DNA of 49,205 bases, taken from the NCBI GenBank assembly GCA_903877885.1, contig CAIRFN010000003.1:1-49205 (forward strand), given 5' to 3'. The notes under the pieces were generated by a model. The model was not told the DNA's origin. It ran no database searches and saw only the letters and a program-made list of their open reading frames with translations. Source of the DNA: an uncultured Candidatus Berkelbacteria bacterium (GTDB taxonomy: Bacteria > Patescibacteriota > UBA1384 > UBA12157). Every line of letters begins with the position of its first letter. The first letter of the stretch is position 1. The translations under genes and the position numbers were made by a program. This document shows, in pieces, positions 1-15,756 of this stretch.

Positions 1-40
1 ATATATTCCTGTTCCTGTTGTATAATAGTTCTAACATCGT

Positions 41-1588
41 TCACGATGTTCCGCCAAATGAGATAGGACTTGCTTGCAAGTCCAAAATTGCTCTGTAAAA
101 TGGGCTAATTTGGGTGTTCGAATAGCCGTTTTTACCATATGGCATTCCGGAGGGGAATATCGAACACAAGAGTGTTTGAACCTGTTTAAGCTTTACATCT
201 GGCTCACTTTTCAACGAATCTTCAAACATTTTAGGTAGGTCTGTAAGCTTTGTTTCTACGAATTTATTGATCAATTCCAAATTATATTTCTCAAGAAGTT
301 CGTCGTTCTTGCTAAACTGTATACTCTTTATCTTTTCTTCCAACATACTATTTTGTTCTTTAAAGATCTCATCGGAGTAAATACCCGATAAATTCTTCTC
401 TATAAGCGCCTGACGCAACTCGTACTGCTTTTTTAAGTCGGTATCGGCTAGTTCCCGCCTTTCCTGCAAGTCGGCGGCTCTTTTAAAGTATGTCCGACGC
501 AGAAAGGCGTTAAACAATTTGGCGGCATTATCCTTTACGGAAAAGTCATGCAGCCATTTAACGGTATCGCCAATCAGTTTACTGGTGGTAACATTCGAGC
601 CGTTACATCGATGTCGACAAAAATAATAGCCGAAGTACTCACGTTTTCCTTTGCTTTTGCCGCCGGTGAAAGAAGTCCCGCATATTTTGCATTTAACAAG
701 TCGACGTAGCGGAAAATCAGGATTGTCTCGATGTCTGATAGCCAGCGGCCCCGATACGCTGTGGTTTCGACCGTCCAGAACAGCCTGAACCTGATAAAAA
801 AGTTCCTCAGTCACCATTGGCGGATGCTGGCCTCGAACTTCACGACCGTATTTTTTAGAAACGACATAACCGGCATAGAATTTATTGCGAAACATTCTGT
901 TGACCTGTTGCGGCAACATTCGTCCGCCTTTATGCCTTTGAGCCACACCCTGTTCGGTCAGGACATCAGCAATGTTTCTCAAGGTTTTAGTACCGGTCGC
1001 CATTAAATGCCATGAATCCTCTAGTTTATCAAAGGTTGCCGGATCTTTTGTCGTATAGCCGCTCTGATTGATATAACCCATAGTGACATAACTTGTCAGT
1101 CCGTTTAGGAATCTTGCTTTCAGGCCGTTTTTAGCGCGTTCACTGCGTATATCGTTATCCATCTGTGCAAATCCCGCCAGCATGGTTTCGACGAATTTTT
1201 CGGTCGGACTGTTGCCGGTCGGCTCGGTCGCTGAGATCAATTTGATATCGCATTCGGTCAATTTCCTTCTTATGATCAAATAATCGGAGGTTTGACGTGA
1301 AACGCGATCCAGTCGGTAGACGATGACTGAACCAATCTCCCGCTTGTGTTTTCGGCAATATTCCAGCATTTCAACCAATATCGGTCGCCCCGTGATCGTT
1401 TTGGCCGATCGCCCTTCCTCGCGGAAAACCTGTGTTACGGTCATTCCTCGACGCTCCGCTTCTTTGCGGCAGATGTCCTCTTGAGTCCCGAGCGAATAAT
1501 TTTCAACCTGTTCTTCGGTCGAGACGCGAATATAGACAATCGCTTTATCCGACCGCTGCTCGATTTTGCCCGTTGGTGTAAGTTCCAT
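41..1588 (-). CDS. Large serine recombinase (resolvase + recombinase + zinc-ribbon domains)
   Basis: N-terminal YIRVSTEEQ (catalytic Ser), IVYRLDRVSR, E..IRSERAKNG helix, GQHPPMV recombinase motif, CKICG...CRHRC zinc ribbon, C-terminal coiled coil. SD AAGGAGG upstream. Confidence 0.93.
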   Translation of the reverse strand: MELTPTGKIEQRSDKAIVYIRVSTEEQVENYSLGTQEDICRKEAERRGMTVTQVFREEGRSAKTITGRPILVEMLEYCRKHKREIGSVIVYRLDRVSRQTSDYLIIRRKLTECDIKLISATEPTGNSPTEKFVETMLAGFAQMDNDIRSERAKNGLKARFLNGLTSYVTMGYINQSGYTTKDPATFDKLEDSWHLMATGTKTLRNIADVLTEQGVAQRHKGGRMLPQQVNRMFRNKFYAGYVVSKKYGREVRGQHPPMVTEELFYQVQAVLDGRNHSVSGPLAIRHRDNPDFPLRRLVKCKICGTSFTGGKSKGKREYFGYYFCRHRCNGSNVTTSKLIGDTVKWLHDFSVKDNAAKLFNAFLRRTYFKRAADLQERRELADTDLKKQYELRQALIEKNLSGIYSDEIFKEQNSMLEEKIKSIQFSKNDELLEKYNLELINKFVETKLTDLPKMFEDSLKSEPDVKLKQVQTLLCSIFPSGMPYGKNGYSNTQISPFYRAILDLQASPISFGGTS

Positions 1589-1903
1589 TTAGCCCTCCTT
1601 TAATATTTCTTTTAATGTTTTGTTATCAAAAACCTGTTTCTCGTACTCGTCCAGCCATGAGTCGATCAGATATTGAAAGTTGGTTAAATAAACGTCCAAA
1701 TCTTCGTCCGATAAATCTTTAACATCGTCACCCATAATAAGCCGCGCTTTTTGAATCCGAGTTTCCTCCTGCTTGGCCGGAAAGATATGTTGCAAGGCGG
1801 TTTCAAATGTTTTTCCGTACTGCATTATCGGATTGATCGGTTTTTCTCTTTCGACAGAAAAATCGATAGAAGGCTTTGCTATTTGTGCCTTCGCAACAAA
1901 CAT
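1589..1903 (-). CDS. Small acidic hypothetical protein translationally coupled to the recombinase (possible directionality or accessory factor)
   Basis: Its TAA abuts the recombinase ATG (TAAATG) and the recombinase SD lies in its last codons. Start codon uncertain. Confidence 0.65.
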   Translation of the reverse strand: MFVAKAQIAKPSIDFSVEREKPINPIMQYGKTFETALQHIFPAKQEETRIQKARLIMGDDVKDLSDEDLDVYLTNFQYLIDSWLDEYEKQVFDNKTLKEILKEG

Positions 1904-1970
1904 GTCTTGCTGATCGATTAGCTGTAATTGAGCCGTCGTCGTATACCCTCCTTACTGTGGTTATAATCAT

Positions 1971-2000
1971 AGTTTACTATGGATATAACCATATTGTCAA
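1971..2000 (-). promoter_or_regulatory. Candidate sigma70 promoter for the small ORF-recombinase operon
   Basis: Minus strand TTGACA (2000-1995), 18 bp, TAAACT (1976-1971), followed by SD AAGGAGG (1953-1947). Confidence 0.45.
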
Positions 2001-2026
2001 GAGGCATTTTTTATCCATAAATCGTG

Positions 2027-2055
2027 TTGACAAGCTAAGAATTCGGGTGTTTAAT
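2027..2055 (+). promoter_or_regulatory. Candidate sigma70 promoter for the replication-relaxation gene
   Basis: TTGACA (2027-2032), 17 bp, TTTAAT (2050-2055); back-to-back with the leftward promoter. Confidence 0.6.
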
Positions 2056-2201
2056 TGTATCAGTGATCAGATACCAAAATATATCTCATTCAATCTTAAA
2101 ATGTAAATGTTTGTGTTACCTACCTTTACAAATAAAGGTTTGGTCGGTATAGGTAATAAAGGTAAATCGCAAATAAAATAAACTACTAACTTCAAAAAAC
2201 T

Positions 2202-3017
2202 ATGACAAACAAAATAACTCCAAAACAAAAACAAATACTCCAATATCTCTATAAATACAAATTCCTAGACAGAAAACAGATCCAACAATTCCTAGATCAC
2301 AAATACCACAAGAGAATCAACGACTGGCTCAAAGACCTAAATCAAAAAGAATATATCAATCGGATATACTCAAACAAATTCGGAGAAAATACCAAACCAG
2401 CAATATACTATCTAGCCTTAAATGGTATCAGGCATTTAAAAGAGCAAAATGAATATCCAATCGAAATACTCCGAAAATTTTACCGGCTCAAAGACCGCTC
2501 AAATGATTTTATCGAGAAGTGTATATTAATTGCTCAGATGGTCCTTGATCTGAAAACAGCCGCAGACAAGAGTCATGACAAGAAAGAGGAAAGTGAACTC
2601 TCGTACCTGATTGCTACCCCTGTGGACTTAGCTAATCCGGATTATCGTTTTAATTTTCTTACCGAGTACAAAGTCGATCTGGTTGTCAAAAGACTCAAAA
2701 CAAAGAAAAGTGGCAAACGAACAAACTCAACCTATTTTCTTTTAACGATTATTGCTCCAACTTTGCCGCGCTATTCGATCAGGCATCAAGTCAAAAAATT
2801 CATCGAACTCTATAATGGCTACGAGTGGGACGATATCAATGAAACCTTCCCTACGATCATGGTTATCTGTCCGACCATCGCTACCATGATTTATACCAAA
2901 CGGATGACGCGGAAACTTCTAGAGGACGAGGATAATCCGAAGGATCTTCATATCCAATTCGCCATGGTTGAGAAAGTCAAAGAATTTGGTGTTACCGGGG
3001 ATATCTGGGAAAAATAA
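2202..3017 (+). CDS. Replication-relaxation (Replic_Relax)-like protein with N-terminal winged HTH
   Basis: ITPKQKQILQYLYKYKFLDRKQIQQFL...RINDWLKDL...YINR...KPAIYYLALNG pattern, size and position next to a serine recombinase fit this family. Recognised by eye. Confidence 0.6.
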   Translation: MTNKITPKQKQILQYLYKYKFLDRKQIQQFLDHKYHKRINDWLKDLNQKEYINRIYSNKFGENTKPAIYYLALNGIRHLKEQNEYPIEILRKFYRLKDRSNDFIEKCILIAQMVLDLKTAADKSHDKKEESELSYLIATPVDLANPDYRFNFLTEYKVDLVVKRLKTKKSGKRTNSTYFLLTIIAPTLPRYSIRHQVKKFIELYNGYEWDDINETFPTIMVICPTIATMIYTKRMTRKLLEDEDNPKDLHIQFAMVEKVKEFGVTGDIWEK

Positions 3018-3092
3018 ACATTTAAATATGTATAGTTAAATCGCGAGTTATCAGTGCGAATCATAGTCAAGGAGTGGAATATCACAAACCCC

Positions 3093-3121
3093 TTGATTTA
3101 TTCTTCTGTTTGTGCTATAAT
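3093..3121 (+). promoter_or_regulatory. Strong sigma70 promoter for DGR target gene 1
   Basis: TTGATT (3093-3098), 17 bp, TATAAT (3116-3121), with extended -10 TG at 3113-3114. Confidence 0.75.
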
Positions 3122-3244
3122 CATTAGGTTTAGAACCTTAAATTTTATCTGGAGCAAGCGCCTTGTTAGCCATATAATATGGTAGATAGTGCGCTTGTTC
3201 CAAGCAAGGGACGGCCTGCTACGGCAGATCTTATATGAAGGAGG

Positions 3245-4147
3245 ATGATGACGATGTCAGGAACATTGATCACGTCCAGAGACCCCAAGGGCCTTCAGGC
3301 AACCTCTATCTTTGAGGCCGCCTATAATCAGGCTGAACTTGACGGAGATCGTGCACAACGTCTCAATGAGCATGGTGGTGAACTCAAAACCGGCATTCTG
3401 CAACTTATCCAAAAGCTGTCGATGTCGAACCAGTTCGCCAACGAGGAGACCAGCTCCAACTACACCTACCCGAAGGAGTATCACGGCCCGAAACCGATCG
3501 AGGAGCAGATCAAAGCAATTGCCGAGATCTTCGACCTCGATCCGGCCCAGGCGTTTGAATACGCCAAGACCCTGGCCAAACTCCCCGAAGGAGCCGAAGG
3601 ATGGTTTGCCATTCCGTCAGTCAACTCCCTGGCAGCCAAGCATTTCCCTGAAGTAACCGATCCGGCTGAAAAGTATTGCCGGGCAGCCCAACTCGTCATA
3701 GAGAAGCTCGCGGCCTCACGGAAGTTCTACAACTACCGTGAGGGCCAGATCGACCCGCAACATCTGCGGGTTCATTCCCGTACGGCTTATGCGCTCGATC
3801 TGATCGCCCAGGAACAAACGGGCGGCATCCTGATTATCGCAGGCCAACTGGGTATGCGCCATCGCGGCAAGTCCGTTCGTCGGTCACGCGAAGTCTTCGT
3901 GTCGAAGGAATTCGGTCTCGAGGCCGTTGCCGGCGGATCCATCGCCCTAACTCACCCCGAACGCTTCACGCGTTCCGAAGAGCTGGACATGGATTTGGCG
4001 GGTAATGAATGGAGCTGGCGCGCCGATGGCGTCTTCGGCGGCGCCCTGAGCCTCTACTTCAGCGGCGGCGGGGTCGAGCTGGGCACGAGCTACCTTGAGG
4101 ACGTGATTCAGTGCTTCGGTTCTGCTTCCGGCTTCCTCTCGCAGTAA
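3245..4147 (+). CDS. DGR target protein 1 (C-terminal variable region; probable start at ATG 3254)
   Basis: 3' end matches TR except at TR adenines. SD AGGAGG (3239-3244) is 9 nt from ATG 3254. Paralog of 4408..5313. Confidence 0.92.
   Translation: MMTMSGTLITSRDPKGLQATSIFEAAYNQAELDGDRAQRLNEHGGELKTGILQLIQKLSMSNQFANEETSSNYTYPKEYHGPKPIEEQIKAIAEIFDLDPAQAFEYAKTLAKLPEGAEGWFAIPSVNSLAAKHFPEVTDPAEKYCRAAQLVIEKLAASRKFYNYREGQIDPQHLRVHSRTAYALDLIAQEQTGGILIIAGQLGMRHRGKSVRRSREVFVSKEFGLEAVAGGSIALTHPERFTRSEELDMDLAGNEWSWRADGVFGGALSLYFSGGGVELGTSYLEDVIQCFGSASGFLSQ
4015..4141 (+). repeat. DGR variable repeat VR1
   Basis: 127-nt ungapped match to TR with 22 mismatches, all at TR adenines (18 A>G, 3 A>T, 1 A>C). 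Confidence 0.96.
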
Positions 4148-4210
4148 GCCGTGTCCCTTGTGTTTTAAATCCTTGAAACTTTTAGCAACTTACTACTTGT
4201 TACTTGGATT

Positions 4211-4261
4211 CCGCCGTAAGGCGGTCGACTTATATCCTGGGTTACCATATGGTAACCCAGG
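4211..4261 (+). promoter_or_regulatory. Post-VR1 hairpins (candidate DGR target-recognition cruciform plus palindrome or terminator)
   Basis: CCGCC-GTAA-GGCGG (4211-4224) then TCGAC; perfect 26-bp palindrome CCTGGGTTACCAT/ATGGTAACCCAGG (4236-4261). Confidence 0.7.
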
Positions 4262-4407
4262 TATCTTTACCCCTTACCCTGATTTTTTTCTTCATAATAA
4301 ATAATTAAACCGAAAAACTTTCTCTCCAGTTCTTAATTGTTTACCTTATAGGCAGACAGCTAAGACCTAGGGGATTAAACCCTGATGGTACTTTTACAAC
4401 AAAGGAG

Positions 4408-5313
4408 ATGGTTCCGATGTCGAAAACATTGGCCCCGTCAGTCACCACCCGAGACAAAAAAGGTCTCAAATTCATGTCCGTTGTGGACGCCGCCTATAAT
4501 AAGGCCGGTCTCTCTGAGGACGAAGCTCAACGTGTCAACGACACGCCTGGGCTTGGCAATTTGGTTTCTAAGTTCATTGCCGACAGTCGGTTTTCCGACA
4601 AGTACAAGAACGAAGAGACCGAGTCGTCCTGCGTCTATCCCTCCACATACAAAGGCCCCAAGCCGATCGAACAGCAGATCGCGGCAATTGCCGAAATCTA
4701 CGGTCTCGACCCGACCCAGGCGCTGGAATATGTGAAGAACCTGCCGGCATTGCCGGAAGGCGCCGAGGGTTGGTTCGCCGTTCCGTCCGACGAAGCGATC
4801 GCCAAGCTCTTCCCCGACATCGCCGACAAGGCCGAACTGTACTGCGCAATGCTGCGCCTGATTATCAGCAAGATTGCTGCTTCGCGGAAGTTCTACAACT
4901 ACCGCGAAGGCGAGATTGACACCAGGCATCTACGGCAGATCCAACGCACCGCCGAGATGCTGGCCAAAGCGGCCGAAACCCAGCCGGGCGATATCCTGAT
5001 CATCGCCGCCCAATTGGGGCTCCGCCATCGCGGTCGTTCGGTTCGCCGCGCCCGCGAGTGCTTCGTCGCCAACGAGTTCGGGCTTTGCCCCGTGATCGTC
5101 GGCACCATTGCACTGACCCACCCCGAGCGGTTTACAAATTCCAGTGAGCTGGATGTAGACTGCGCTGGCGGAGAGTGGAGCTGGAGCGCCGATGGCGTCT
5201 TCGACTACGCCCTGCTCCTCTTCTTCTACGACGGCGAGGTCAGGCTGGGCACGCGCGGCCTTGAGAGCGTGGATCAGGACTTCGGTTCTGCTTCCGGCTT
5301 CCTCTCGCAGTAA
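4408..5313 (+). CDS. DGR target protein 2 (probable start at ATG 4417)
   Basis: 3' end matches TR except at TR adenines. SD AAGGAG (4402-4407) is 9 nt from ATG 4417. Roughly half of residues identical to target 1 by eye. Confidence 0.92.
   Translation: MVPMSKTLAPSVTTRDKKGLKFMSVVDAAYNKAGLSEDEAQRVNDTPGLGNLVSKFIADSRFSDKYKNEETESSCVYPSTYKGPKPIEQQIAAIAEIYGLDPTQALEYVKNLPALPEGAEGWFAVPSDEAIAKLFPDIADKAELYCAMLRLIISKIAASRKFYNYREGEIDTRHLRQIQRTAEMLAKAAETQPGDILIIAAQLGLRHRGRSVRRARECFVANEFGLCPVIVGTIALTHPERFTNSSELDVDCAGGEWSWSADGVFDYALLLFFYDGEVRLGTRGLESVDQDFGSASGFLSQ
5181..5307 (+). repeat. DGR variable repeat VR2
   Basis: 127-nt ungapped match to TR with 20 mismatches, all at TR adenines (14 A>G, 4 A>T, 2 A>C). 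Confidence 0.96.
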
Positions 5314-5376
5314 GCCGTGTCCCTTGTTCTTTAATCCCTTGAAACTTTTGAATTCTTTTCTCTTGTTTCTTGGGTT

Positions 5377-5390
5377 CCCGCCTTGGCGGG
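5377..5390 (+). promoter_or_regulatory. Post-VR2 hairpin (candidate DGR target-recognition cruciform)
   Basis: CCCGC-CTTG-GCGGG then TCGAC, at the same distance from the stop codon as the VR1 hairpin. Confidence 0.7.
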
Positions 5391-5399
5391 TCGACATAC

Positions 5400-5434
5400 C
5401 CGGGCTATCCTTCAGTGGGTGGCCCGGCTTTTTT
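5400..5434 (+). terminator. Rho-independent terminator after target gene 2
   Basis: 11-bp stem CCGGGCTATCC/GGGTGGCCCGG (two G-U pairs), 6-nt loop, then CTTTTTT. Confidence 0.75.
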
Positions 5435-5721
5435 ATTGCTTTTAAATTCCCGAGTTGATATATTGCAGATGAAAGTAAGCTCATGAACAGACGTCTACGG
5501 ATTTCTGTCGCTGAAATCTCGAATCAAAACCAAGCCGGAATTCCAAAGGTTACGGCTGATGGAAGAGTGCTTATTTGAGGAGATACTGCTTGCTCTTATC
5601 TGGTGCGGGTGTCCGAATAATATCGGGCTGCTGCCAAATAAAATACAGGGATGGGAGTACATAATCCCTTTTGGGAAGTAAAACTCGATTTCCGGTGCCA
5701 AAAGATGGATAAGAGCATTTA

Positions 5722-5848
5722 CTGGAACGCCGATAGCGTCTTCGACAACGCCCTGAACCTCTACTTCAACGACGACAAGGTCAAGCTAGACACGAACAAC
5801 CTTGAGAACGTAAATCAGAACTTCGGTTCTGCTTCCGGCTTCCTCTCG
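5722..5848 (+). repeat. DGR template repeat (TR), presumably expressed as non-coding RNA
   Basis: 34 adenines, with 8 AAC and 1 AAT codons in the target frame. Last 28 nt are adenine-free and identical in both VRs. Lies between the targets and avd/RT. Confidence 0.96.
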
Positions 5849-5862
5849 AAGTCTCTCCTTTT

Positions 5863-5897
5863 AAAAAGACGTTTTACCAAACGTAAGGCGTCTTTTT
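5863..5897 (+). terminator. Hairpin or terminator at the 3' end of the TR RNA, overlapping the avd stop codon
   Basis: 15-bp stem AAAAAGACGTTTTAC/GTAAGGCGTCTTTTT with CAAAC loop. Two G-U pairs work only on the + strand. A-run before and T-run after. Confidence 0.65.
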
Positions 5898-6243
5898 ACT
5901 CTTTAGAAGCTTTAATCCAACCGCCCAACATGCGGCCGATTTCATCGATGTTGGATTCGAATATAGTATAGATTTTGAGATCGATTGCTTTAATATCTTT
6001 CATTAAGCGAACAAAAACTCGAAGCAAACTAATTTTCGAAGCGGTATCTTTTAGGACGGGTAATTTTTCTTCTTTTGACATCTGACTAGCCCTTAAGATA
6101 CCTTCGATAACCTCTAAAAGAGCATTTTCACTCTTTTGAAATAAAGTGTAGCGTTCCTGCTTAGGTATCTTGTTTCTGATCTCATGAAATTGTCGATACA
6201 GGTCGTAAGCCTTTTTAAAGATGGGAATGTCTAATTCTTGCAT
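5896..6243 (-). CDS. avd: DGR accessory variability determinant (Avd)-like four-helix-bundle protein
   Basis: 115 aa, helical, with IFKKAYDL...PKQERYTL...LLRVFVRL..D...EIGRMLGGW signature; sits between TR and RT. Confidence 0.85.
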   Translation of the reverse strand: MQELDIPIFKKAYDLYRQFHEIRNKIPKQERYTLFQKSENALLEVIEGILRASQMSKEEKLPVLKDTASKISLLRVFVRLMKDIKAIDLKIYTIFESNIDEIGRMLGGWIKASKE

Positions 6244-6257
6244 GGGAAACCTTTCGT

Positions 6258-7389
<1,132 letters not shown>

Positions 7390-7513
7390 TCAACCACAAA
7401 AAAAGCCCGAGAGTCCAAAAACTCCCAGGCCTTTTAATTAGTACTCACTTACAAACATCACTGTTAGCGATCCGAATCTATGAATATTTTGATATTTATG
7501 CTACAATCGGCTC

Positions 7514-7732
7514 ATGATTATCAAGAAAAATGAAAAAGTGAGAGTTGAGCTGGGCGACAAACTCCGCAAAGCCAGAGAGAAAGCCGGAATGACTCAGGCG
7601 GAAGTTGCTGATCAGGCGGAAATCAATGTCAGCTACTACGCCCAGATCGAACGGGGCGAGGTTAATGTTTCTTTTGATAAACTTCAGAGCATTATAAAAG
7701 TGCTAAAGATCAAATCTTTAGATATTGTTTAG
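7514..7732 (+). CDS. XRE/Cro-C1 family helix-turn-helix transcriptional regulator
   Basis: LGDKLRKAREKAGMTQAEVADQAEINVSYYAQIERGEVNVS is a canonical HTH_3 pattern; 72 aa. Confidence 0.9.
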   Translation: MIIKKNEKVRVELGDKLRKAREKAGMTQAEVADQAEINVSYYAQIERGEVNVSFDKLQSIIKVLKIKSLDIV

Positions 7733-7824
7733 CTCAATCAGGAGCTGTCACTCCCGTCGAATACTTGCCTTAACCGGTCAAGCCAGGCTAAAAGGTGTTC
7801 GAAACAAAGTGCATCCAGCCCGCC

Positions 7825-7852
7825 AAAAAAAATCGCCTTCGGGCGTTTTTTT
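7825..7852 (+). terminator. Bidirectional rho-independent terminator
   Basis: A8, then CGCC-TTCG-GGCG (C(UUCG)G tetraloop), then T7. Confidence 0.8.
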
Positions 7853-7935
7853 GTTACTTTCTATTACTTCTCAAAATATGTTAATATAGTATTAATTGAT
7901 AATATTAGTATATTTGTAATGGAGCAAAGCGACTC

Positions 7936-8625
7936 ATGAAATTAGCTATTTTAATCCCGGCCTATAATGAAGAGGCTTCTCTTGGGAAAGTGATAGAAAC
8001 TCTACCTAAAGAACTCCCAGGTATTTCTAAAATTGAAGTGGTAGTTGTTAACGACGGTTCGGCTGACAAAACCCGTGAAGTGGCTCTAAACGCTGGCGCA
8101 ACTGTCGTATCTCATTGGTTTAATCGTGGCTTAGGTGGTGCCCTTGGGACTGGTTTTGAGTATATTAAACGCCATGATTTTGATTTGTTAATCACTTTTG
8201 ATGCCGACGGCCAACACAATCCTGATGATATTGCTCCGGTCATTAAACCGATTGTCGATGGTCGAGCCGATGTTTGTATTGGTTCGCGTTTTATCGGTCA
8301 TCTCGGTTCAATGCCATGGTATCGTCGCATTGGCATTTTCGGTCTTAATATTATCACCTTTCTGCTTTTTTGGACTTGGACCACTGATTCCCAATCGGGT
8401 CTGCGCGCTTTTGGCCGCAATGCTATCAATAAAATCGAAATTAAAACCAATAAAATGGAGGTTTCTTCCGAGTTTTTCTATGAAATTCAAGCCAAAGGTT
8501 TAAAACTAACCGAAGTCCCAATCCAATCAATCTATACCGCCTATTCTATCAGTAAGGGCCAAAAAAACATTAACGCCTTTAATATTTTAGCTAAATTAAT
8601 TTATCGACGATTTTTCGCTAAATAG
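7936..8625 (+). CDS. GT2 polyprenol-phosphate glycosyltransferase (DPM-synthase/GacI-like)
   Basis: ILIPAYNEE, VVVVNDGSAD, NRGLGGAL, ITFDADGQH, DSQSGLRAF motifs. Confidence 0.9.
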   Translation: MKLAILIPAYNEEASLGKVIETLPKELPGISKIEVVVVNDGSADKTREVALNAGATVVSHWFNRGLGGALGTGFEYIKRHDFDLLITFDADGQHNPDDIAPVIKPIVDGRADVCIGSRFIGHLGSMPWYRRIGIFGLNIITFLLFWTWTTDSQSGLRAFGRNAINKIEIKTNKMEVSSEFFYEIQAKGLKLTEVPIQSIYTAYSISKGQKNINAFNILAKLIYRRFFAK

Positions 8626-8673
8626 ATCGGTGACCCGATCGCAGAATTTCAATATTCCGAAATATAATATAAT

Positions 8674-8706
8674 TGTCATTGCGAGCTCCGCAGAGCGCGG
8701 CAATCT
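8674..8706 (+). repeat. REP-like palindromic element
   Basis: TGTCATTGCGAG-CTCCGCAGAGC-GCGGCAATCT: nested ATTGC/GCAAT and GCTC/GAGC stems, matching the GTCATTGCGAG...GCAATCT type of intergenic palindrome. Confidence 0.55.
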
Positions 8707-8722
8707 ATCATAAGGAGAAAAC

Positions 8723-9091
8723 ATGTCATTATTCGATCGAATTTTAACTTTAATCACCCCAATTCGGATTATTTTACTTTTATTCGCCATCTTTGCTTGG
8801 ACGCGCGTAGTATTACGTTTTCGCGATAAAGTAGTTAACTTTAAAGAACTTGCCTTCTGGACTTTGGTTTGGTTTGGTATGGTTATTGTTATTTTCCTAC
8901 CTTATAAAACCACTTATTTAGCCAAAGCTCTCGGCATGGAACGTGGCATTGATGCCATGTTTTTACTTGGCATTGTCGCTCTTTTTTACGCTGTCTATCG
9001 GCTTTACATTAAACTTAATGAAACCGAACGTGAAATGACCAAATTAGTTCGTCAAATCGCTTTAAAATTAGGCGAAGAAAAACCAGAATAA
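8723..9091 (+). CDS. DUF2304 family small membrane protein (GacJ-like partner of the upstream GT2)
   Basis: Three TM helices, LAKALGMERGIDA motif, C-terminal EREMTKLVRQIAL; follows a DPM-like GT2; SD AAGGAG. Confidence 0.85.
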   Translation: MSLFDRILTLITPIRIILLLFAIFAWTRVVLRFRDKVVNFKELAFWTLVWFGMVIVIFLPYKTTYLAKALGMERGIDAMFLLGIVALFYAVYRLYIKLNETEREMTKLVRQIALKLGEEKPE

Positions 9092-9100
9092 CAGACTATA

Positions 9101-10306
9101 ATGAAGATTTTACTTATCACTCAATATTATAATCCGGTTAAGGGAGCTGCGGCCAAACGAACTGGAAAAATGGCTCAATTTTTGAATACAGCCGGCCACG
9201 ATGTCACTGTTTTGACTGGTTTTCCCTCTTATCCGACTGGAATTTTAGCCAAAAAATATCAAAGCAAACTTTGGTTTCACGAAGTTATTAATGAAATCAA
9301 AATTACTCGAGTTTGGGAATTACCGGTTTCCACGTCTGATAGCACCATTAAGCGTTTATTAAATCTAGTTAGTTTTGCCAAAACCAGCGCTTGGTATGGT
9401 TTGTTCCACCATAAATTTGATATGGTGATTGTTAGTTCACCAAATTTTTTAAGCGGCTATGCCGGGCTTTACAGCGCCGGAAAAAATGCCAAATTCTATT
9501 TTGATATTCGTGATCTTTGGCCTGATTCGGCCGTTCAATTAGGAGTACTGCCAGAGGAAGGTTTTTTAACTAATTGGCTCAAAAAATTGGAAAAAAAGTA
9601 TTATGATCGCGCTACCAAAATTTTTACCGCCACTCCGGGAATTAAAGATCATTTACTTACTGAAGAAATTCCGGCTGATAAGATTGAAGTTTTATTAAAC
9701 AGTGTCGATACTAACCTATTTTCACCCAAGAAAGTTAATAAAACCAAGTTCGAACTCGATGAAACCGATTTCGTCTGCGGTTATATTGGTAATATGAGTC
9801 GAGTTTATGATTTGGAAACAGTCATTAAAACCGCGCAGAAATTGAAGGATTACCCAGAGATTAAATTTGTCCTGGTTGGGGAAGGCGAAAGTAAATCGAA
9901 AGTCCAAGTTATGGCTAAAAATATGGGGCTTAATAATGTGATTTTTATTCCAGAAACACCACTTCAAGAGTTACCAGAAATTATCAACAGTTTTGATTTG
10001 GGCTTGGCGCCGATTGCCAAAATTGGCGTTTCTCAAGAATCTTTTCCTTCTAAGGTCAGCGAATATTTAGCTTGTTCTGTGCCCGTACTTGCCTCTCTGG
10101 CCGGAGATATGGCCAAGACCATCAAAGAGCACGAGGTTGGTCTAATTTACGAACCAGGCGATGCTGAAGCCTTGGCTAATTATATTTTAAAACTTTCCAG
10201 AGATAATCTTTCCATGCAAATAATGAGCCTTAACGCTCGTCAATTAGCCCTCAAAATGTTTTCCGATGAAATTTTTAGTGAGAAATTAATTTCAGCTCTC
10301 GGCTAG
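9101..10306 (+). CDS. GT4 glycosyltransferase, WbuB-like
   Basis: MKILLITQYYNP, VLTGFPSYPTG, IRDLWPDS, YIGNM, FPSKVSEYLAC motifs. Confidence 0.88.
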   Translation: MKILLITQYYNPVKGAAAKRTGKMAQFLNTAGHDVTVLTGFPSYPTGILAKKYQSKLWFHEVINEIKITRVWELPVSTSDSTIKRLLNLVSFAKTSAWYGLFHHKFDMVIVSSPNFLSGYAGLYSAGKNAKFYFDIRDLWPDSAVQLGVLPEEGFLTNWLKKLEKKYYDRATKIFTATPGIKDHLLTEEIPADKIEVLLNSVDTNLFSPKKVNKTKFELDETDFVCGYIGNMSRVYDLETVIKTAQKLKDYPEIKFVLVGEGESKSKVQVMAKNMGLNNVIFIPETPLQELPEIINSFDLGLAPIAKIGVSQESFPSKVSEYLACSVPVLASLAGDMAKTIKEHEVGLIYEPGDAEALANYILKLSRDNLSMQIMSLNARQLALKMFSDEIFSEKLISALG

Positions 10307-10314
10307 GTCAAAAA

Positions 10315-11139
10315 TTAATTTTTAGATCTTGGATACATTGATACAACCTGATTAATAGTTTTAACTTGAATCTGACCTTGTTTTTGTTTCTCACTAATAT
10401 AGGCTAAAATTTGATCTAAATACTTTGGTTGAATTTCGAATCGTGAAGATGGACTATTGTCAACCGTATGCATATAGATAATTAACCAACCTTTTTGATT
10501 AATCGCTTGGTCAATTCGGTCCTTTACCACACTAATCGATGTCGAAGAGCCAACCTCAAACGAGGACAAACCATAAGGGTTTAATTTATCCAAATGATTA
10601 ATGCCAGGATTACCGCGGATATTATTTTTACGATTCGACTGATAAAACTCTTCGATCCAAGCTAAGCCATTACTATTATATTGGCCATAAGGCGCGGCAA
10701 AAGAAGTCACTTTATAACCATGTTGCGCAAAGATAGTCTTAGCACCATCGAGTTCATAAATCATTTGATCTTTGGTTTTAATTAAATTTAGATGAGGATG
10801 AGTCACTGTATGACTAGCAATCTCCCAACCACTTTGAGATAAAGTTTGAACATTATCCCAACTAACAAAACCGTCTTCACTAATTGAACCAGCAATCAGA
10901 TAAAAAGTCGCCGGAATATGATATTGCTGAAAAATTGGAAAGGCATTATCATAAATGGTTTTTGAGCCATCATCAAAGGTAATCGTCACAATCGCTTGAT
11001 TTTTAAGTTGATTCGAATTTTGACGATGGTATCGCCAAACCAAAACTAAGCCAGTAAGAAGGATAATCAATCCTAAAGATATCAAAAGATACTTTCTAAT
11101 ATTTAATCTTAAATTTTTCTTAGTTTGCATTGGTAACAT
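10315..11139 (-). CDS. Membrane-anchored polysaccharide deacetylase (CE4/NodB)
   Basis: N-terminal TM helix, ITFDDG, EIASHTVTHPHL, FAAPYG, IIYMH motifs. Confidence 0.88.
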   Translation of the reverse strand: MLPMQTKKNLRLNIRKYLLISLGLIILLTGLVLVWRYHRQNSNQLKNQAIVTITFDDGSKTIYDNAFPIFQQYHIPATFYLIAGSISEDGFVSWDNVQTLSQSGWEIASHTVTHPHLNLIKTKDQMIYELDGAKTIFAQHGYKVTSFAAPYGQYNSNGLAWIEEFYQSNRKNNIRGNPGINHLDKLNPYGLSSFEVGSSTSISVVKDRIDQAINQKGWLIIYMHTVDNSPSSRFEIQPKYLDQILAYISEKQKQGQIQVKTINQVVSMYPRSKN

Positions 11140-13447
11140 TTGCTAGCTTATCGACTTCAACTTTTAAAGCTGGTAAAACTTGATAAATTACCGAATCACT
11201 TTTAAAGATTTTTTTAAAATATTCTGGATGAGCGTCAAAGAAAGCTTCATCTTGGTTAACTGGTGCATAAAGCGTAATATATTGGGCCTTCGATTGATAA
11301 ATTAAGATTAAACACTCGTTCAAAGTCCATTTTCCTTCATAAACTCGATTATAGCGATTTAAGGCACCAGTTCGCGGATAAGCAGTCATGAACTGATCTA
11401 AGATAACTGGAAAAGTGTAAACTGTTGATCCAGGCGTTAAGAAAATTGATTTAGCGGGAATATTTTTTTGAATAAAATCAACCATATCCGCTCCGCCAAT
11501 CGCTCTCGTGGTATTCTGACGGAAACTGGCTATATTAGTTTGAGTTATTAAAATCTTATCTTCAAAAGCAGAACTAAAACTTGTTTTAACATATGTCCAA
11601 GTTGGTGAAAAAAAGATTGCTAATAATATCACTATTGCAAAACTAGCAAATATGCCATTTTTGGGCTCTGTTAAAGTAAAAAAATCTCGAGTTTTCGGTT
11701 TCCAAAACTGCAAGAAAATCAGAATAAAAGCAATTGAAAGTGATGGAATAAAAAACCACCAAAAATGTTCTCCAAACCAAGTACTAAAGTTATCTGAAAA
11801 AATTGCATTATAAATCGTAGCTGTCGACGTTAAAATAAGTTTTGTTGGTGTGTGTTTATCTGGCAATAATGCTAATTGAAATTGAGTTTTTACAAACAAG
11901 GCTGCCAAAAAGACTAAAATTATATTAAAAAAATACTGACCAAATCTAGAAACCTTAACTTTACTAATTAATTTATCAATAATAAATACAACAAAACCAA
12001 AAATTAAAGCCAAAACAAGATAGTGCCAAGTAAGACTACCAATTAAACGGTTAACAAAAATATAGCCTAAAACCTTTAGCAAAAATATTACCACTGGTTT
12101 AAAATAAGCAATTGGCGCTACTAACATTAAAGCAAAAATAAAAAGCAAATGTCGATTTTTAATTGATAAAGCTAAAACTATTGGAGTAAAAACATAGGCA
12201 TATTTAGAATAAATATCATAATCGCTAAAAACCCCGAAATGTAAAACTTGTGTTGCAACCACAGCCGCATTTTGAACATTTTCAGCCAGAACTTTAGTTA
12301 CAATATGACTTCTTATTTCCAGAAATATCAGAAAAGGCACAAAGATAAGAAAACTACCTAATAAAATCCAACCAACACGAATTAATATTTTTTTATAATC
12401 TTGATTCTGCCACTGTGAAATTATCCAAACTAAACCGAACATTCCAATTAGAACCAAAAAATAAAGATATTGGGTGATATGAATAGTCGCCATCAAAACA
12501 ACTGAAATTGAAGTTAAAACTAACAGCTTTTGATTAATTTTATCCTCAAAAATATATTTTAAAGCCAAAGCCGTAACTAAAGGAAAAAGAAACATATTGT
12601 TTAGAGTGTCTGGCAAGGGCAAACAAGTGAAAAGATAACTTTGAGACCAATTATAAATATAAATTGCAACATATGCTAAACCTAGCCAGATAAAAAAGCG
12701 TTTTTGAAAAACTATTTGGAAAAGCCAGGCCCAGGCCAAAAACGCCAAAACAGAAAGTGGAACAGAAATAACTTTCCACATCGCCAAAGGATCACTTTTA
12801 GTTAGGTTTGACAGAAAACCTACAAAAACGTGCCAAATTGGTACACCATAGGCGATATGAATCGTATCACCTTTGATAAAACTTAAGTTAGCCAACGCCA
12901 GCGGTTGGCCAGCCGAAGCTTTTTCCACAATAGCCATATGAAAGTCGGTATCACCACCTCTTAAGAGCGTTCCAGCGTTTGCTACTGACGCAATCACAGC
13001 CAAAATTGCTACCAGGACTAAAGTATAACCAATATTTTCTGCTCGCAGAAAATTTTTCCAATTCCAAATCATTTTTTCTGGTTCGGCCTTGTAACGTAAA
13101 TCTAAAATTAAACTAGTAATCAATAAACCGATAATTAAAATTAAGCAAAGATTGGCTAAAACTCCGACTGTTAGACTAATTAACATTGTTGTTAGACAAA
13201 CTAATAAAACAAAAGTTAGCCCTAATGTTAACCAAAGAATTAACTGACCTAGTTTATCATTTGTAAATTTAAATTTTAATAATCTTGCCAAAGAGAAACC
13301 AGGAACAATCAGAATGCCAGTAAAAATAATAGTGATTGTTAACGGTGATAAAATATTACTTTTAGCTAAAGTTAAACTGGTAATCAGCCAAACAACCATC
13401 AAACCATATTGAGCCATCAATATTTTTTTGTTTTTGAATATTTTCAT
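11120..13447 (-). CDS. Large polytopic membrane protein, GT-C-like, paralog A1
   Basis: Many TM helices; PGFSLARL, GGDTDFH...GQPL, PIWH, PLPDTL motifs shared with the two neighbouring genes; soluble C-terminal domain. Confidence 0.6.
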   Translation of the reverse strand: MKIFKNKKILMAQYGLMVVWLITSLTLAKSNILSPLTITIIFTGILIVPGFSLARLLKFKFTNDKLGQLILWLTLGLTFVLLVCLTTMLISLTVGVLANLCLILIIGLLITSLILDLRYKAEPEKMIWNWKNFLRAENIGYTLVLVAILAVIASVANAGTLLRGGDTDFHMAIVEKASAGQPLALANLSFIKGDTIHIAYGVPIWHVFVGFLSNLTKSDPLAMWKVISVPLSVLAFLAWAWLFQIVFQKRFFIWLGLAYVAIYIYNWSQSYLFTCLPLPDTLNNMFLFPLVTALALKYIFEDKINQKLLVLTSISVVLMATIHITQYLYFLVLIGMFGLVWIISQWQNQDYKKILIRVGWILLGSFLIFVPFLIFLEIRSHIVTKVLAENVQNAAVVATQVLHFGVFSDYDIYSKYAYVFTPIVLALSIKNRHLLFIFALMLVAPIAYFKPVVIFLLKVLGYIFVNRLIGSLTWHYLVLALIFGFVVFIIDKLISKVKVSRFGQYFFNIILVFLAALFVKTQFQLALLPDKHTPTKLILTSTATIYNAIFSDNFSTWFGEHFWWFFIPSLSIAFILIFLQFWKPKTRDFFTLTEPKNGIFASFAIVILLAIFFSPTWTYVKTSFSSAFEDKILITQTNIASFRQNTTRAIGGADMVDFIQKNIPAKSIFLTPGSTVYTFPVILDQFMTAYPRTGALNRYNRVYEGKWTLNECLILIYQSKAQYITLYAPVNQDEAFFDAHPEYFKKIFKSDSVIYQVLPALKVEVDKLANVTNAN

Positions 13448-13465
13448 TTTTTAATCCTTGTTTAA

Positions 13466-15727: not shown

Positions 15728-15756
15728 TTTATCCTTTTATATTTAATTTAAGTATA

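What the first reader, a model, noticed from the sequence alone, without database searches (positions are those of the whole stretch)
3245..5848. One template repeat diversifying two paralogous target genes
VR1 and VR2 each align ungapped to TR over 127 nt with 22 and 20 mismatches, and all 42 are at TR adenines, which is the defining DGR signature. TR has 34 adenines covering 21 variable codons: 9 AAY (15 residues each), 10 single-A codons (4 each) and 2 AAG (13 plus stop). That gives about 7e18 possible protein variants per target (15^9 x 4^10 x 13^2). The two VRs carry different variants, so they were diversified independently.
Basis: seen in the sequence. Interest (0 to 1): 0.8.

Follow-up and report, generated by a model that had tools for sequence, protein, structure and literature searches.

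The report
DGR whose reverse transcriptase is repeat-switched
The window holds a genuine diversity-generating retroelement with one template and two paralogous target genes, but its reverse transcriptase gene is out of frame at a (GA)16 repeat whose length differs between samples, and the same repeat sits in hundreds of related elements, so it may act as an on/off switch for targeted hypermutation.

Summary
TR 5722-5848 matches VR1 and VR2 ungapped, with 22 and 20 mismatches, all at TR adenines. This is a diversity-generating retroelement (DGR) of the type found in candidate phyla radiation (CPR, Patescibacteria) bacteria. It comprises two paralogous 300-aa targets, a TR, an Avd gene on the opposite strand and an RT. 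It lies on a roughly 7.8-kb integrative element.

Two targets per cassette is already described.

- **Same element, other samples:** nearly identical copies carry (GA)13 (off), (GA)16 (off) or an intact 375-aa RT that equals the (GA)14 product. VR1, VR2 and TR do not differ in any assembly.
- **Other elements:** scans found 204 distinct CPR DGR RTs with at least (GA)7 at this site. Only 19% of alleles are in frame. Both other frames are common, every copy keeps YxDD, and near-identical elements differ in tract length.

I read this as a slipped-strand on/off switch on the mutator, off in this window. Recoding by slippage is the main rival. I found no report of it. The targets have no recognisable family or fold.

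The parts
3245..4147 (+). Target gene T1. It encodes 300 aa from the first ATG. Gene callers start at 3254, giving 297 aa (P0001).
   Evidence: ORF list. More than 1272 homologues, from CPR genomes where a source names the organism, are 63-69% identical and variable only in the last ~45 residues. No Pfam, PHROG or NCBIfam hit.
4015..4145 (+). VR1, the variable repeat at the 3' end of T1.
   Evidence: 23 mismatches to the TR over 131 nt, all at TR adenines.
4408..5313 (+). Target gene T2, a paralogue of T1 (61% aa identity). It encodes 301 aa; gene callers start at 4417, giving 298 aa.
5181..5311 (+). VR2, the variable repeat at the 3' end of T2.
   Evidence: 21 mismatches to the TR over 131 nt, all at TR adenines.
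5722..5852 (+). Template repeat (TR). It lies in an intergenic region, and a spurious ORF (5651-5971) runs through it in the VR reading frame.
5821..5848 (+). A-free 28-nt 3' segment of the TR. It is identical in VR1 (4114-4141) and VR2 (5280-5307) and is a candidate IMH*/IMH region. VR and TR diverge just after it.
5863..5897 (.). Inverted repeat between the TR and the convergent avd gene. It may be a bidirectional terminator.
   Evidence: Read from the sequence. The simple terminator scan did not call it.
5896..6243 (-). avd accessory gene (115 aa), on the strand opposite to the TR and RT.
   Evidence: Pfam bAvd E 5.9e-18. NCBIfam DivGenRetAVD 88.9 bits, above the cut-off of 80.
6258..6905 (+). 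RT, N-terminal reading frame (215 aa, with the upstream RT motifs). It ends at a stop soon after the GA tract.
   Evidence: RVT_1 profile positions 8-106. Matches residues 4-160 of bRT 8ub7_A.
6828..6845 (+). Hairpin GATTTGC-GGAA-GCAAATC, immediately 5' of the tract.
   Evidence: RNA fold. Related RTs keep the stem, some with changed bases.
6846..6877 (+). (GA)16 microsatellite inside the RT gene. It is the only dinucleotide tract of 6 or more units in the window.
   Evidence: Alleles of 13, 14 and 16 units occur in other samples.
6878..6900 (+). Hairpin GCTGTCGG-CTTCCAA-CCGACAGC, immediately 3' of the tract.
   Evidence: the 161-nt region folds with z = -4.3. L006 and L051 have different-sequence hairpins at the same place.
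6907..7389 (+). RT, C-terminal reading frame (+1 relative to the N part; open from 6880). It carries GIPIGNLTSQ, YTDD and the thumb.
   Evidence: RVT_1 profile positions 117-205. Matches residues 175-322 of bRT.
7514..7732 (+). HTH_3-type regulator gene (72 aa), the last gene of the mobile element.
   Evidence: It is also present in the related element L006.
41..1588 (-). Large serine recombinase (integrase) of the element.
   Evidence: Resolvase, Recombinase and Zn_ribbon_recom domains. phrog_95 integrase, E 6e-77.
1589..1903 (-). 104-aa gene of unknown function that belongs to the element.
   Evidence: Conserved next to the recombinase in L001, L002, L006 and L007. No family hit.
2202..3017 (+). 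Replication-relaxation-like gene (271 aa).
   Evidence: Pfam Replic_Relax E 1e-7. phrog_2190 replication initiation protein, E 6e-5.
50..58 (.). Left end of the element, with core TCCGCCAAA. In L001 this overlaps the 3' end of tRNA-Ser(GCT).
7820..7835 (.). Right end of the element. It contains the direct repeat CCGCCAAA, and homology to L006 stops at 7835.
4236..4261 (+). Terminator-like hairpin after T1. Its counterpart after T2 is at 5400-5427.

Best explanation
**What it is (shown).** This is a CPR-type DGR carried on a roughly 7.8-kb integrative element (about window 50-7835). The element encodes a large serine recombinase, and in one sample it abuts a tRNA-Ser gene. One TR (5722-5852) is the template for the last ~43 codons of two paralogous cytoplasmic-looking proteins, T1 and T2.

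**How it works (inferred from the Bordetella phage paradigm).** The TR RNA is copied by the RT-Avd complex into cDNA with random bases opposite adenines. The cDNA then replaces VR1 or VR2. Homing is presumably guided by the A-free 28-nt 3' segment that the TR and both VRs share.

**State in this window (shown).** The RT cannot be made by ordinary decoding. A (GA)16 tract in the loop between RT motifs 3 and 4 puts the catalytic half in the +1 frame. Tracts of 11, 14 or 17 units restore a single 375-aa-class ORF.

**Proposed switch (inferred).** The tract is a slipped-strand contingency switch.
- Replication slippage changes the number of GA units and turns RT synthesis on and off.
- Diversification of T1 and T2 would then happen in bursts in a minority of cells, while most cells keep their VRs fixed.
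- This window is an OFF allele.
- The hairpins on both sides of the tract may raise the slippage rate, or may allow some frame correction at the RNA or ribosome level.

The confidence of 0.6 is for the whole statement including the switch. For DGR identity alone I would put it near 0.97.
For: **DGR identity**
- Mismatches are adenine-only.
- Avd is above the NCBIfam cut-off.
- The RT is homologous to bRT and has PIGNLTSQ and YTDD.
- The TR and VR1 co-vary in the related element L006.

**Frameshift**
- Translation and simulation of tract lengths show which unit counts restore the frame.

**Tract polymorphism in the same element**
- The copies are at least 99.85% identical: at most 5 SNPs in 4.8-6.9 kb, and none in a VR or the TR.
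- (GA)16 gives the 215-aa frame (10 contigs).
- (GA)13 gives a 213-aa frame (2 contigs).
- A 375-aa RT (2 contigs) equals the simulated (GA)14 product residue for residue.

**Generality**
- That gave 204 distinct elements and 212 alleles: 41 in frame, 93 shifted by 1, 77 shifted by 2.
- RTs without a tract are in frame in 75 of 80 loci.
- 8 of 19 groups of near-identical elements differ in tract length, and 6 of them change frame.

**OFF alleles are not decayed**
- All 213 alignable tract-bearing RTs keep Y/FxDD.
- Both RT halves are intact as often in OFF alleles (71%) as in ON alleles (64%).
- TR/VR pairs with mostly-A mismatches are as frequent in OFF as in ON loci.
- Tract-bearing RTs are only 46-66% identical to each other, so the tract has coexisted with purifying selection for a long time.

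**Specificity**
- The loci hold 259 GA/TC tracts in 2.39 Mb, against 4 tracts of any other dinucleotide.
- 228 of the 259 were placed at the RT site.
Against: - No reads were available. Within-sample tract heterogeneity, reversibility and switching rate are therefore untested.
- The contigs with the in-frame RT carry the same VR1 and VR2 as the OFF contigs. No link between ON state and diversification is shown.
- In-frame alleles (19%) are rarer than the 33% expected for a freely drifting tract (p = 1e-5). That fits selection against ON, but it also fits a system that does not need the genomic frame, meaning recoding.
- The tract could have grown repeatedly from a conserved Glu-Arg (GAGAGA) in the loop (LFERKG in tract-less RTs). 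Recurrence may then partly reflect mutational bias rather than selection.
- The test for TR/VR decay has little power against recent gene death.
Confidence: 0.6

Rival explanations
1. Recoding rather than a DNA switch. Full-length RT is made from any genomic frame because RNA polymerase or the ribosome slips on the GA tract. A 2-nt slip re-pairs perfectly on a period-2 repeat, and the flanking hairpins would act as stimulators. Tract length would then tune a low RT level instead of switching it on and off.
For: - All three frames are common, and the in-frame one is the rarest.
- A GC-rich hairpin directly 3' of the tract occurs in 40% of 204 elements against 5% of control windows. Its sequence differs between relatives while the stem is kept.
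- The window has hairpins on both sides of the tract.
- OFF alleles keep all catalytic motifs.
Against: - 60% of elements lack a strong 3' hairpin.
- To my knowledge, slippage on GA dinucleotide tracts by bacterial RNA polymerase or ribosomes has not been demonstrated.
- DNA-level length changes are directly seen among near-identical elements. A DNA switch therefore exists whether or not recoding adds to it.
Confidence: 0.2
2. Dead element. The RT was inactivated by expansion of an unstable repeat, the DGR no longer works, and the VRs are frozen relics.
For: - The RT is out of frame in 12 of 14 contigs that carry a complete RT of this element.
- VR1, VR2 and the TR are invariant in all assemblies.
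Against: - An in-frame allele of the same element exists in other samples.
- There are no other lesions in either RT half.
- The same tract is found in 204 elements whose RTs have diverged to about 57% identity yet all keep YxDD. That is not expected if out-of-frame meant dead.
Confidence: 0.12
3. Sequencing or assembly artefact. The true tract is always in frame, and short-read assemblers misreport its length.
For: - Dinucleotide repeats are prone to PCR stutter.
- Some contigs end in or near the tract: L209, and 14 observed against 6.3 expected in the metagenome set.
Against: - The same 215-aa frame is found in 10 contigs from several samples and assemblers.
- The tract (32 nt) is much shorter than a read.
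- Two independent collections give the same frame proportions, 23:49:40 and 18:49:40.
- RTs without a tract, from the genome collection, are in frame in 75 of 80 loci.
Confidence: 0.05

Closest known systems
Bordetella phage BPP-1 DGR (bRT-Avd, TR, Mtd VR)
   Same: - Adenine-specific TR-to-VR differences.
- The VR sits at the 3' end of the target ORF.
- An A-free 3' segment is shared by the TR and VR.
- Avd is present.
- The RT is homologous: 8ub7_A, E 7e-42, with IGxxxSQ and YxDD.
   Different: - Chromosomal integrative element, not a phage.
- avd is on the opposite strand, between the TR and RT.
- Two targets.
- The target has no recognisable C-type lectin fold: no PDB fold match, best E 1.1.
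- The RT has a roughly 35-residue insertion that holds a (GA)n tract and is out of frame here.
CPR/Patescibacteria DGR lineage (Paul et al. 2017; the 'CPR set' of Wu et al. 2018, PMC5758913; clade 2 of Roux et al. 2021, PMC8144416)
   Same: - RT relatives are 54-66% identical, and those that carry an organism name come from CPR genomes.
- The target family includes proteins from the GW2011 Parcubacteria genomes (P0087).
- The target has no known domain, which is typical of CPR DGR targets.
   Different: - None of the surveys I could read mentions a repeat tract or split RT genes.
- Paul et al. 2017 could not be read.
- I could not check whether this cassette matches the 'B3' architecture, because the figure is not held.
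Simple-sequence-repeat contingency loci (phase-variable genes of Neisseria, Haemophilus, Campylobacter and Helicobacter, including phase-variable methyltransferases)
   Same: - An intragenic repeat whose unit is not a multiple of three.
- ON and OFF alleles occur among near-identical genomes.
- The tract is conserved at the same site in orthologues.
   Different: - The switched gene is a mutator enzyme that acts on two other genes, not a surface or modification gene.
- The host is a CPR bacterium.
- The repeat is a long GA dinucleotide flanked by hairpins.
- Switching rate and reversibility are not measured.
Rescue of frameshifted genes by polymerase slippage on homopolymer tracts (endosymbiont poly(A) tracts; IS-element and dnaX slippage sites; reviewed in PMC5009743)
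   Same: - A repeat inside an otherwise intact gene that is out of frame in the genome.
- All frames are seen across relatives.
   Different: - The repeat is a dinucleotide, not a homopolymer.
- There is no RNA evidence here.

Membership tests
Diversity-generating retroelement (DGR) | A TR/VR pair whose differences fall almost only on TR adenines. | tested here: met
   42 of 42 mismatches over 127 nt, and 44 of 44 over 131 nt, for the two VRs.
Diversity-generating retroelement (DGR) | The VR lies inside a protein-coding gene, usually at its 3' end. | tested here: met
   VR1 ends 2 nt before the T1 stop codon ends, and VR2 likewise in T2.
Diversity-generating retroelement (DGR) | An RT of the DGR clade, with motif 4 IGxxxSQ and catalytic YxDD. 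| tested here: met
   GIPIGNLTSQ and YTDD are present. The best solved relative is bRT, E 7e-42.
Diversity-generating retroelement (DGR) | An intact, translatable RT gene. | tested here: not met
   In this window the RT is split 215 + 143 aa by (GA)16. An in-frame 375-aa allele exists in other samples.
Diversity-generating retroelement (DGR) | An accessory protein (Avd or HRDC). | tested here: met
   NCBIfam DivGenRetAVD 88.9 bits, above the cut-off of 80.
Diversity-generating retroelement (DGR) | IMH at the VR 3' end and a differing IMH* in the TR. | tested here: inconclusive
   An A-free 28-nt block is identical in all three repeats. The VRs (CAGTAAGCC...) and the TR (AAGTCTCTCC...) diverge just after it. 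Function is not testable in silico.
Diversity-generating retroelement (DGR) | Ongoing adenine-specific polymorphism of the VR within populations. | not testable with these tools
   No reads were available. At the assembly level each target has a single sequence, in 19 and 18 contigs.
SSR phase-variable (contingency) gene | An intragenic tract whose unit length is not a multiple of 3, so that unit changes shift the frame. | tested here: met
   (GA)16 at 6846-6877. Simulated tracts of 11, 14 and 17 units give an open frame.
SSR phase-variable (contingency) gene | Tract-length alleles, both ON and OFF, among otherwise near-identical genomes. | tested here: met
   13, 14 and 16 units in copies at least 99.85% identical. 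8 of 19 other near-identical groups vary in tract length.
SSR phase-variable (contingency) gene | The tract is conserved at the same site in orthologues beyond chance. | tested here: met
   204 distinct elements carry it. GA/TC tracts number 259 in the fetched loci, against 4 tracts of any other dinucleotide.
SSR phase-variable (contingency) gene | High-frequency, reversible switching within a clonal population, with a phenotype that follows the switch. | not testable with these tools
   This needs reads, cultures or reporter assays.
Programmed ribosomal frameshift / transcriptional slippage site | One fixed frame relationship between the two ORFs, conserved across homologues. | tested here: not met
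   Shifts of 0, 1 and 2 occur in 41, 93 and 77 alleles.
Programmed ribosomal frameshift / transcriptional slippage site | A stimulatory RNA structure just 3' of the slippery sequence. | tested here: inconclusive
   Present in the window and in 40% of elements against 5% of controls, but absent from the majority.
C-type lectin-fold DGR variable protein (Mtd/TvpA type) | A C-terminal CLec fold that displays the VR. | tested here: not met
   AF2 model pLDDT 75.6, pTM 0.69. No PDB fold match, best E 1.1. No Pfam or PDB sequence match. The VR segment itself is modelled with only moderate confidence.

The most novel reading that the evidence does not exclude
Many CPR bacteria gate their DGRs with a hypermutable (GA)n tract inside the reverse transcriptase gene, so that one mutational switch controls another. 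Most cells are RT-OFF and keep their variable proteins fixed. Rare slippage to RT-ON (or rare slippage during expression) triggers bursts of diversification. This would be the first known genetic on/off control of a DGR. It would also mean that DGR surveys that require an intact RT ORF have systematically missed or misclassified a sizeable class of elements.
Probability: 0.5. Interest if true: 0.85.

Novelty: new variant of a known kind. Interest (0 to 1): 0.72.

Why it matters
**What is routine.** The DGR itself, and one TR serving two targets, is known biology.

**What could matter.**
- How DGR mutagenesis is regulated is an open question, because constant mutagenesis of a useful protein is costly.
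- A repeat-based on/off switch inside the RT would be a simple, heritable and reversible answer.
- It appears in at least 204 distinct elements across CPR lineages, with about 80% of assembled alleles out of frame.
- It is directly testable with existing metagenome reads: tract-length spectra against adenine-specific VR diversity, sample by sample.

**Practical consequence.** Pipelines that call DGRs from intact RT proteins will split, discard or label as pseudogenes most members of this class.

**Other points.**
- The target family has more than 1272 members, no known fold and no signal peptide visible to the eye. It is a large uncharacterised class of diversified, probably intracellular proteins.
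- The cassette rides on a small element that, in one sample, sits at a tRNA-Ser gene. That gives a route for horizontal spread of DGRs among CPR bacteria.

Tried and rejected
1. **Remote VRs.** A degenerate TR pattern and the A-free 28-mer find only TR, VR1 and VR2 in the window. The exact 28-mer is absent from the genome collection.
2. **Known RNA families.** An Rfam scan of 1-12000 gave only two sub-threshold hits: snoZ178 on the GA tract, and RT-7 RNA at 5534-5601 (21 bits against a gathering score of 117). I rejected both as chance.
3. **Target function.** There was no match in Pfam, PHROGs, NCBIfam, PDB sequences or the PDB fold search. PADLOC was not run.
4. **One fixed programmed frameshift.** Rejected, because both non-zero shifts are common.
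5. **Split RT working as two polypeptides.** Unlikely. The first ATG of the downstream frame (6958) lies after the GIPIGNLTSQ motif.
6. **Phage origin.** Rejected. The rest of the window is an envelope polysaccharide locus, and the element has an integrase but no structural genes.
7. **Contig ends at the tract as a sign of within-sample polymorphism.** Only a mild excess (14 against 6.3 expected), so I did not rely on it.
8. **Literature.** Five full-text searches and targeted reading of Wu 2018 and Roux 2021 found no mention of a repeat tract, a frameshift or phase variation in a DGR RT. Paul et al. 2017 is not held, so prior mention there cannot be excluded.


Full report
**1. The observation**

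Repeat finding and direct comparison place three copies of a 131-nt repeat in one register: 4015-4145, 5181-5311 and 5722-5852.
All 42 are adenines in the third copy, which is therefore the template repeat.
- That stretch has 34 A in 127 nt. The chance of 42 of 42 hits on A is about 1e-24 (my arithmetic).
- The codon bookkeeping is right: 9 AAY, 2 AAG, 10 single-A non-synonymous codons and 2 silent third-position A. This gives 6.8e18 variants.
- One more A>C is shared by both VRs at 5849. Similarity stops at 5853.
- Substitutions are A>G in 32 of 42 cases.
- The two VRs share 12 changed sites, 8 with the same base. About 7 are expected if they changed independently.
- No further VR exists in the window.

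**2. The cassette**

- **Targets.** VR1 and VR2 end the ORFs 3245-4147 (T1) and 4408-5313 (T2), which are paralogues with 61% aa identity.
- **TR.** It lies 408 nt after T2.
- **avd.** It follows at 5896-6243 on the minus strand. It matches Pfam bAvd and passes the NCBIfam DivGenRetAVD cut-off.
- **RT.** It starts at 6258 on the plus strand.
- **IMH candidate.** The last 28 nt of the repeat contain no adenine and are identical in all three copies. Just after this block the VRs read CAGTAAGCC... and the TR reads AAGTCTCTCC.... This is the layout expected of IMH and IMH*.
- **Relative L006.** Its T1 is 90% identical. Its TR differs from this TR at non-A positions, and its VR1 carries the same changes. 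That is what repeated homing predicts.

One TR with two targets in the cassette is found in about 13-15% of surveyed DGRs (Wu et al. 2018, PMC5758913).

**3. The RT is out of frame**

- **Split gene.** The RT reads as 215 aa (6258-6905, with the upstream RT motifs) and then continues in the +1 frame (open from 6880), with GIPIGNLTSQ, YTDD and the thumb, to 7389.
- **Tract.** Between the two frames lies a pure (GA)16 tract, 6846-6877. It sits inside a roughly 35-residue insertion relative to the Bordetella phage RT (8ub7_A, E 7e-42; the alignment breaks between bRT residues 160 and 175).
- **Frame rule.** Simulation shows that 11, 14 or 17 units give one ORF, 375 aa at 14 units. All other lengths give early stops.
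- **Hairpins.** The tract is bracketed by GATTTGC-GGAA-GCAAATC (6828-6845) and GCTGTCGG-CTTCCAA-CCGACAGC (6878-6900). The 161-nt region folds with z = -4.3.

**4. The same element in other samples**

Exact-protein look-ups returned 18-19 contigs from several samples.

*RT alleles*

| RT product | Tract | Contigs |
|---|---|---|
| 215 aa | (GA)16 | 10 |
| 213 aa | (GA)13 | 2 |
| 375 aa | (GA)14, inferred | 2 |

The 375-aa protein (P0243) is residue for residue the simulated (GA)14 product.

*The rest of the element*
- These copies differ from the window by at most 5 substitutions in 4.8-6.9 kb. None is in a VR or the TR.
- One contig ends inside the tract.
- T1 and T2 each exist as a single sequence in the 15-billion-protein collection, in 19 and 18 contigs. 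That includes the contigs with the in-frame RT.
- So the tract is the most variable site of the element, while the VRs are invariant at the level of assemblies.

**5. The tract is a family trait**

*First signs*
- Many intact homologous RTs (54-66% identical) carry (RE)3-6 at exactly this loop. The commonest 349-aa relatives read ...LFERKGLPIGN....
- The conserved Glu-Arg codons are therefore a likely seed for the repeat.

*Scans.* I scanned for (GA)7, then 8-38 nt, then PIGNLTSQ codons.

*Frame assignment.* I assigned frames by tblastn of the two RT halves. This gave 228 loci, 204 distinct elements and 212 distinct alleles.

| Frame state | Alleles |
|---|---|
| In frame | 41 (19%) |
| Shifted by 1 | 93 |
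| Shifted by 2 | 77 |
| In frame with a stop | 1 |

- The two collections give nearly the same proportions: 23:49:40 and 18:49:40.
- In-frame alleles are fewer than one third (binomial p = 1e-5).
- RTs without a tract, from the genome collection, are in frame in 75 of 80 loci.
- Among 19 groups of near-identical elements, 8 differ in tract length and 6 change frame. Examples are 10 units ON against 9 OFF, and 11 OFF against 25 ON.
- GA/TC tracts of 7 or more units number 259 in the 2.39 Mb fetched. 228 of them were placed at the RT site, and tracts of any other dinucleotide number 4.

**6. Out-of-frame copies are not decaying**

- All 213 tract-bearing RTs with an alignable C half keep Y/FxDD, whether in or out of frame.
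- Both halves are intact in 71% of OFF alleles and 64% of ON alleles.
- TR/VR pairs with at least 80% A-mismatches are found in 53 of 93 OFF loci, 14 of 25 ON loci and 52 of 73 tract-less in-frame loci. The A fractions are similar, 0.95-0.975.
- Tract-bearing RTs are only 46-66% identical to one another. The tract has therefore coexisted with purifying selection on the enzyme for a long time, or arisen many times.
- A GC-rich hairpin right after the tract occurs in 40% of elements against 5% of control windows. An upstream hairpin occurs in 12%. Stems are kept with different sequences: window, L006, L051, L324.

**7. Interpretation**

*Shown*
- This is a DGR.
- Its RT is frameshifted here.
- Tract length varies among near-identical copies, and one variant is in frame.
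- The tract is widespread, specific to this site, and mostly out of frame.

*Inferred*
- The tract works as a slipped-strand on/off switch for RT synthesis, and so for diversification of T1 and T2.

*Rivals*
- **Recoding.** Transcriptional or ribosomal slippage on the period-2 repeat, helped by the hairpins, would make the genomic frame unimportant. This would also explain the shortage of in-frame alleles.
- **Plain gene death** is argued against in section 6.
- **Assembly error** is argued against by reproducibility across assemblies, by tract lengths far below read length, and by the contrast with tract-less RTs.

I could not test within-sample heterogeneity or any link between the ON state and VR diversity. 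The in-frame contigs have the same VRs as the others.

**8. Targets**

- T1 has more than 1272 homologues. Those that carry an organism name come from CPR genomes. They are 63-69% identical over residues 1-250 and hypervariable over the last ~45.
- There is no hit in Pfam, PHROGs, NCBIfam or PDB sequences.
- The AF2 model (pLDDT 75.6, pTM 0.69) is mixed alpha/beta. The VR forms the last three strands. No PDB fold match was found, best E 1.1.
- I therefore cannot file the target as a C-type lectin-fold variable protein.
- By eye the N terminus has no signal peptide or membrane segment (no predictor was run). An intracellular role is likely but unknown.

**9. Context**

- Window 50-7835 aligns at 85% to L006. 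L006 sits in a different neighbourhood, and the similarity stops at both ends.
- The ends carry the direct repeat CCGCCAAA.
- In L001 the left end overlaps the 3' end of tRNA-Ser(GCT).
- The element encodes a large serine recombinase, a 104-aa protein, a Replic_Relax-like protein, the DGR and an HTH regulator.
- The rest of the window is a chromosomal envelope-polysaccharide locus of about 33% GC.

**10. Comparison and novelty**

- In mechanism and membership this is a DGR of the CPR lineage. It meets all the sequence-level criteria except an intact RT in this copy.
- The repeat-gated RT resembles SSR contingency genes. It meets the criteria I could test: a frame-shifting unit, ON and OFF alleles among near-identical genomes, and site conservation.
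- I found no report of such a tract in five literature searches and two surveys that I read.
- I rate the whole locus as a new variant of a known kind, because of the switch-like tract.

Noticed in passing
window 6846-6877 (and L088-L329): A (GA)16 tract inside the RT gene puts the catalytic half out of frame. The same tract occurs in 204 distinct CPR DGR RTs, and about 80% of their alleles are out of frame. This became the main result of the report.
   Followed up: yes
window 6828-6845 and 6878-6900: Perfect hairpins directly flank the GA tract. Relatives keep a 3' hairpin with different sequence, often with a TTCG loop, in 40% of elements. Its role is unknown: it might stimulate slippage or frameshifting.
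   Followed up: partly
window 3245-5313, against the rest of the window: Both target genes are 57-59% GC (GC3 67-74%) in a genome of about 33% GC, while the RT and avd are 36-39% GC. Across 61 T1-family genes the median GC is 57.8%, against 44% for their surroundings. The cause is unexplained.
   Followed up: partly
window 50-58 and 7820-7835; L001 2712-2803: The DGR sits on a roughly 7.8-kb integrative element bounded by CCGCCAAA repeats. In L001 the element abuts tRNA-Ser(GCT). In the window and in L002 the identical element has a different left flank but the same right flank, which suggests a rearrangement or a tandem insertion at the attachment site.
   Followed up: partly
window 5266-5333, against L006 8013-8080: In the window the T2 3' end is identical to T1 for 20 nt beyond the TR homology. 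In L006 the T2 VR region matches the TR only over its first ~78 nt (all but one of those mismatches fall on a TR adenine) and then diverges, so it has no IMH-like block. This suggests gene conversion between the paralogues, which would have made or kept T2 a target in this lineage.
   Followed up: partly
window 4146-4235 and 5312-5399: About 90 nt downstream of both stop codons are conserved between T1 and T2. The conserved stretch includes a small hairpin (CCGCC-GTAA-GGCGG in T1, CCCGCC-TTG-GCGGG in T2) followed by TCGAC, and lies ahead of the terminator-like hairpins. It might serve target recognition or transcript processing.
   Followed up: no
window 5651-5971: A 106-aa ORF runs through the TR in the VR reading frame and overlaps avd on the other strand. 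Some gene callers annotate it (88 or 106 aa in L003 and L209). It is most likely spurious, a relic of the target 3' end.
   Followed up: no
window 5722-5848: The substitution spectrum is strongly A>G (32 of 42). Both silent third-position adenines (5788, 5812) are G in both VRs.
   Followed up: no
window 5534-5601: A weak Rfam hit to RT-7 RNA (21 bits against a gathering score of 117, E 0.13), upstream of the TR. It is probably chance. Conservation of the region upstream of the TR was not examined.
   Followed up: no
L263 586-778: A 1.5-kb metagenome contig carries two tract-plus-motif matches about 120 nt apart. This could be an assembly artefact at a polymorphic tract, or a duplication.
   Followed up: no
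window 11120-18012: Three consecutive ORFs of 751-775 aa on the minus strand have no Pfam match. They lie within the glycosyltransferase-rich polysaccharide locus.
   Followed up: no
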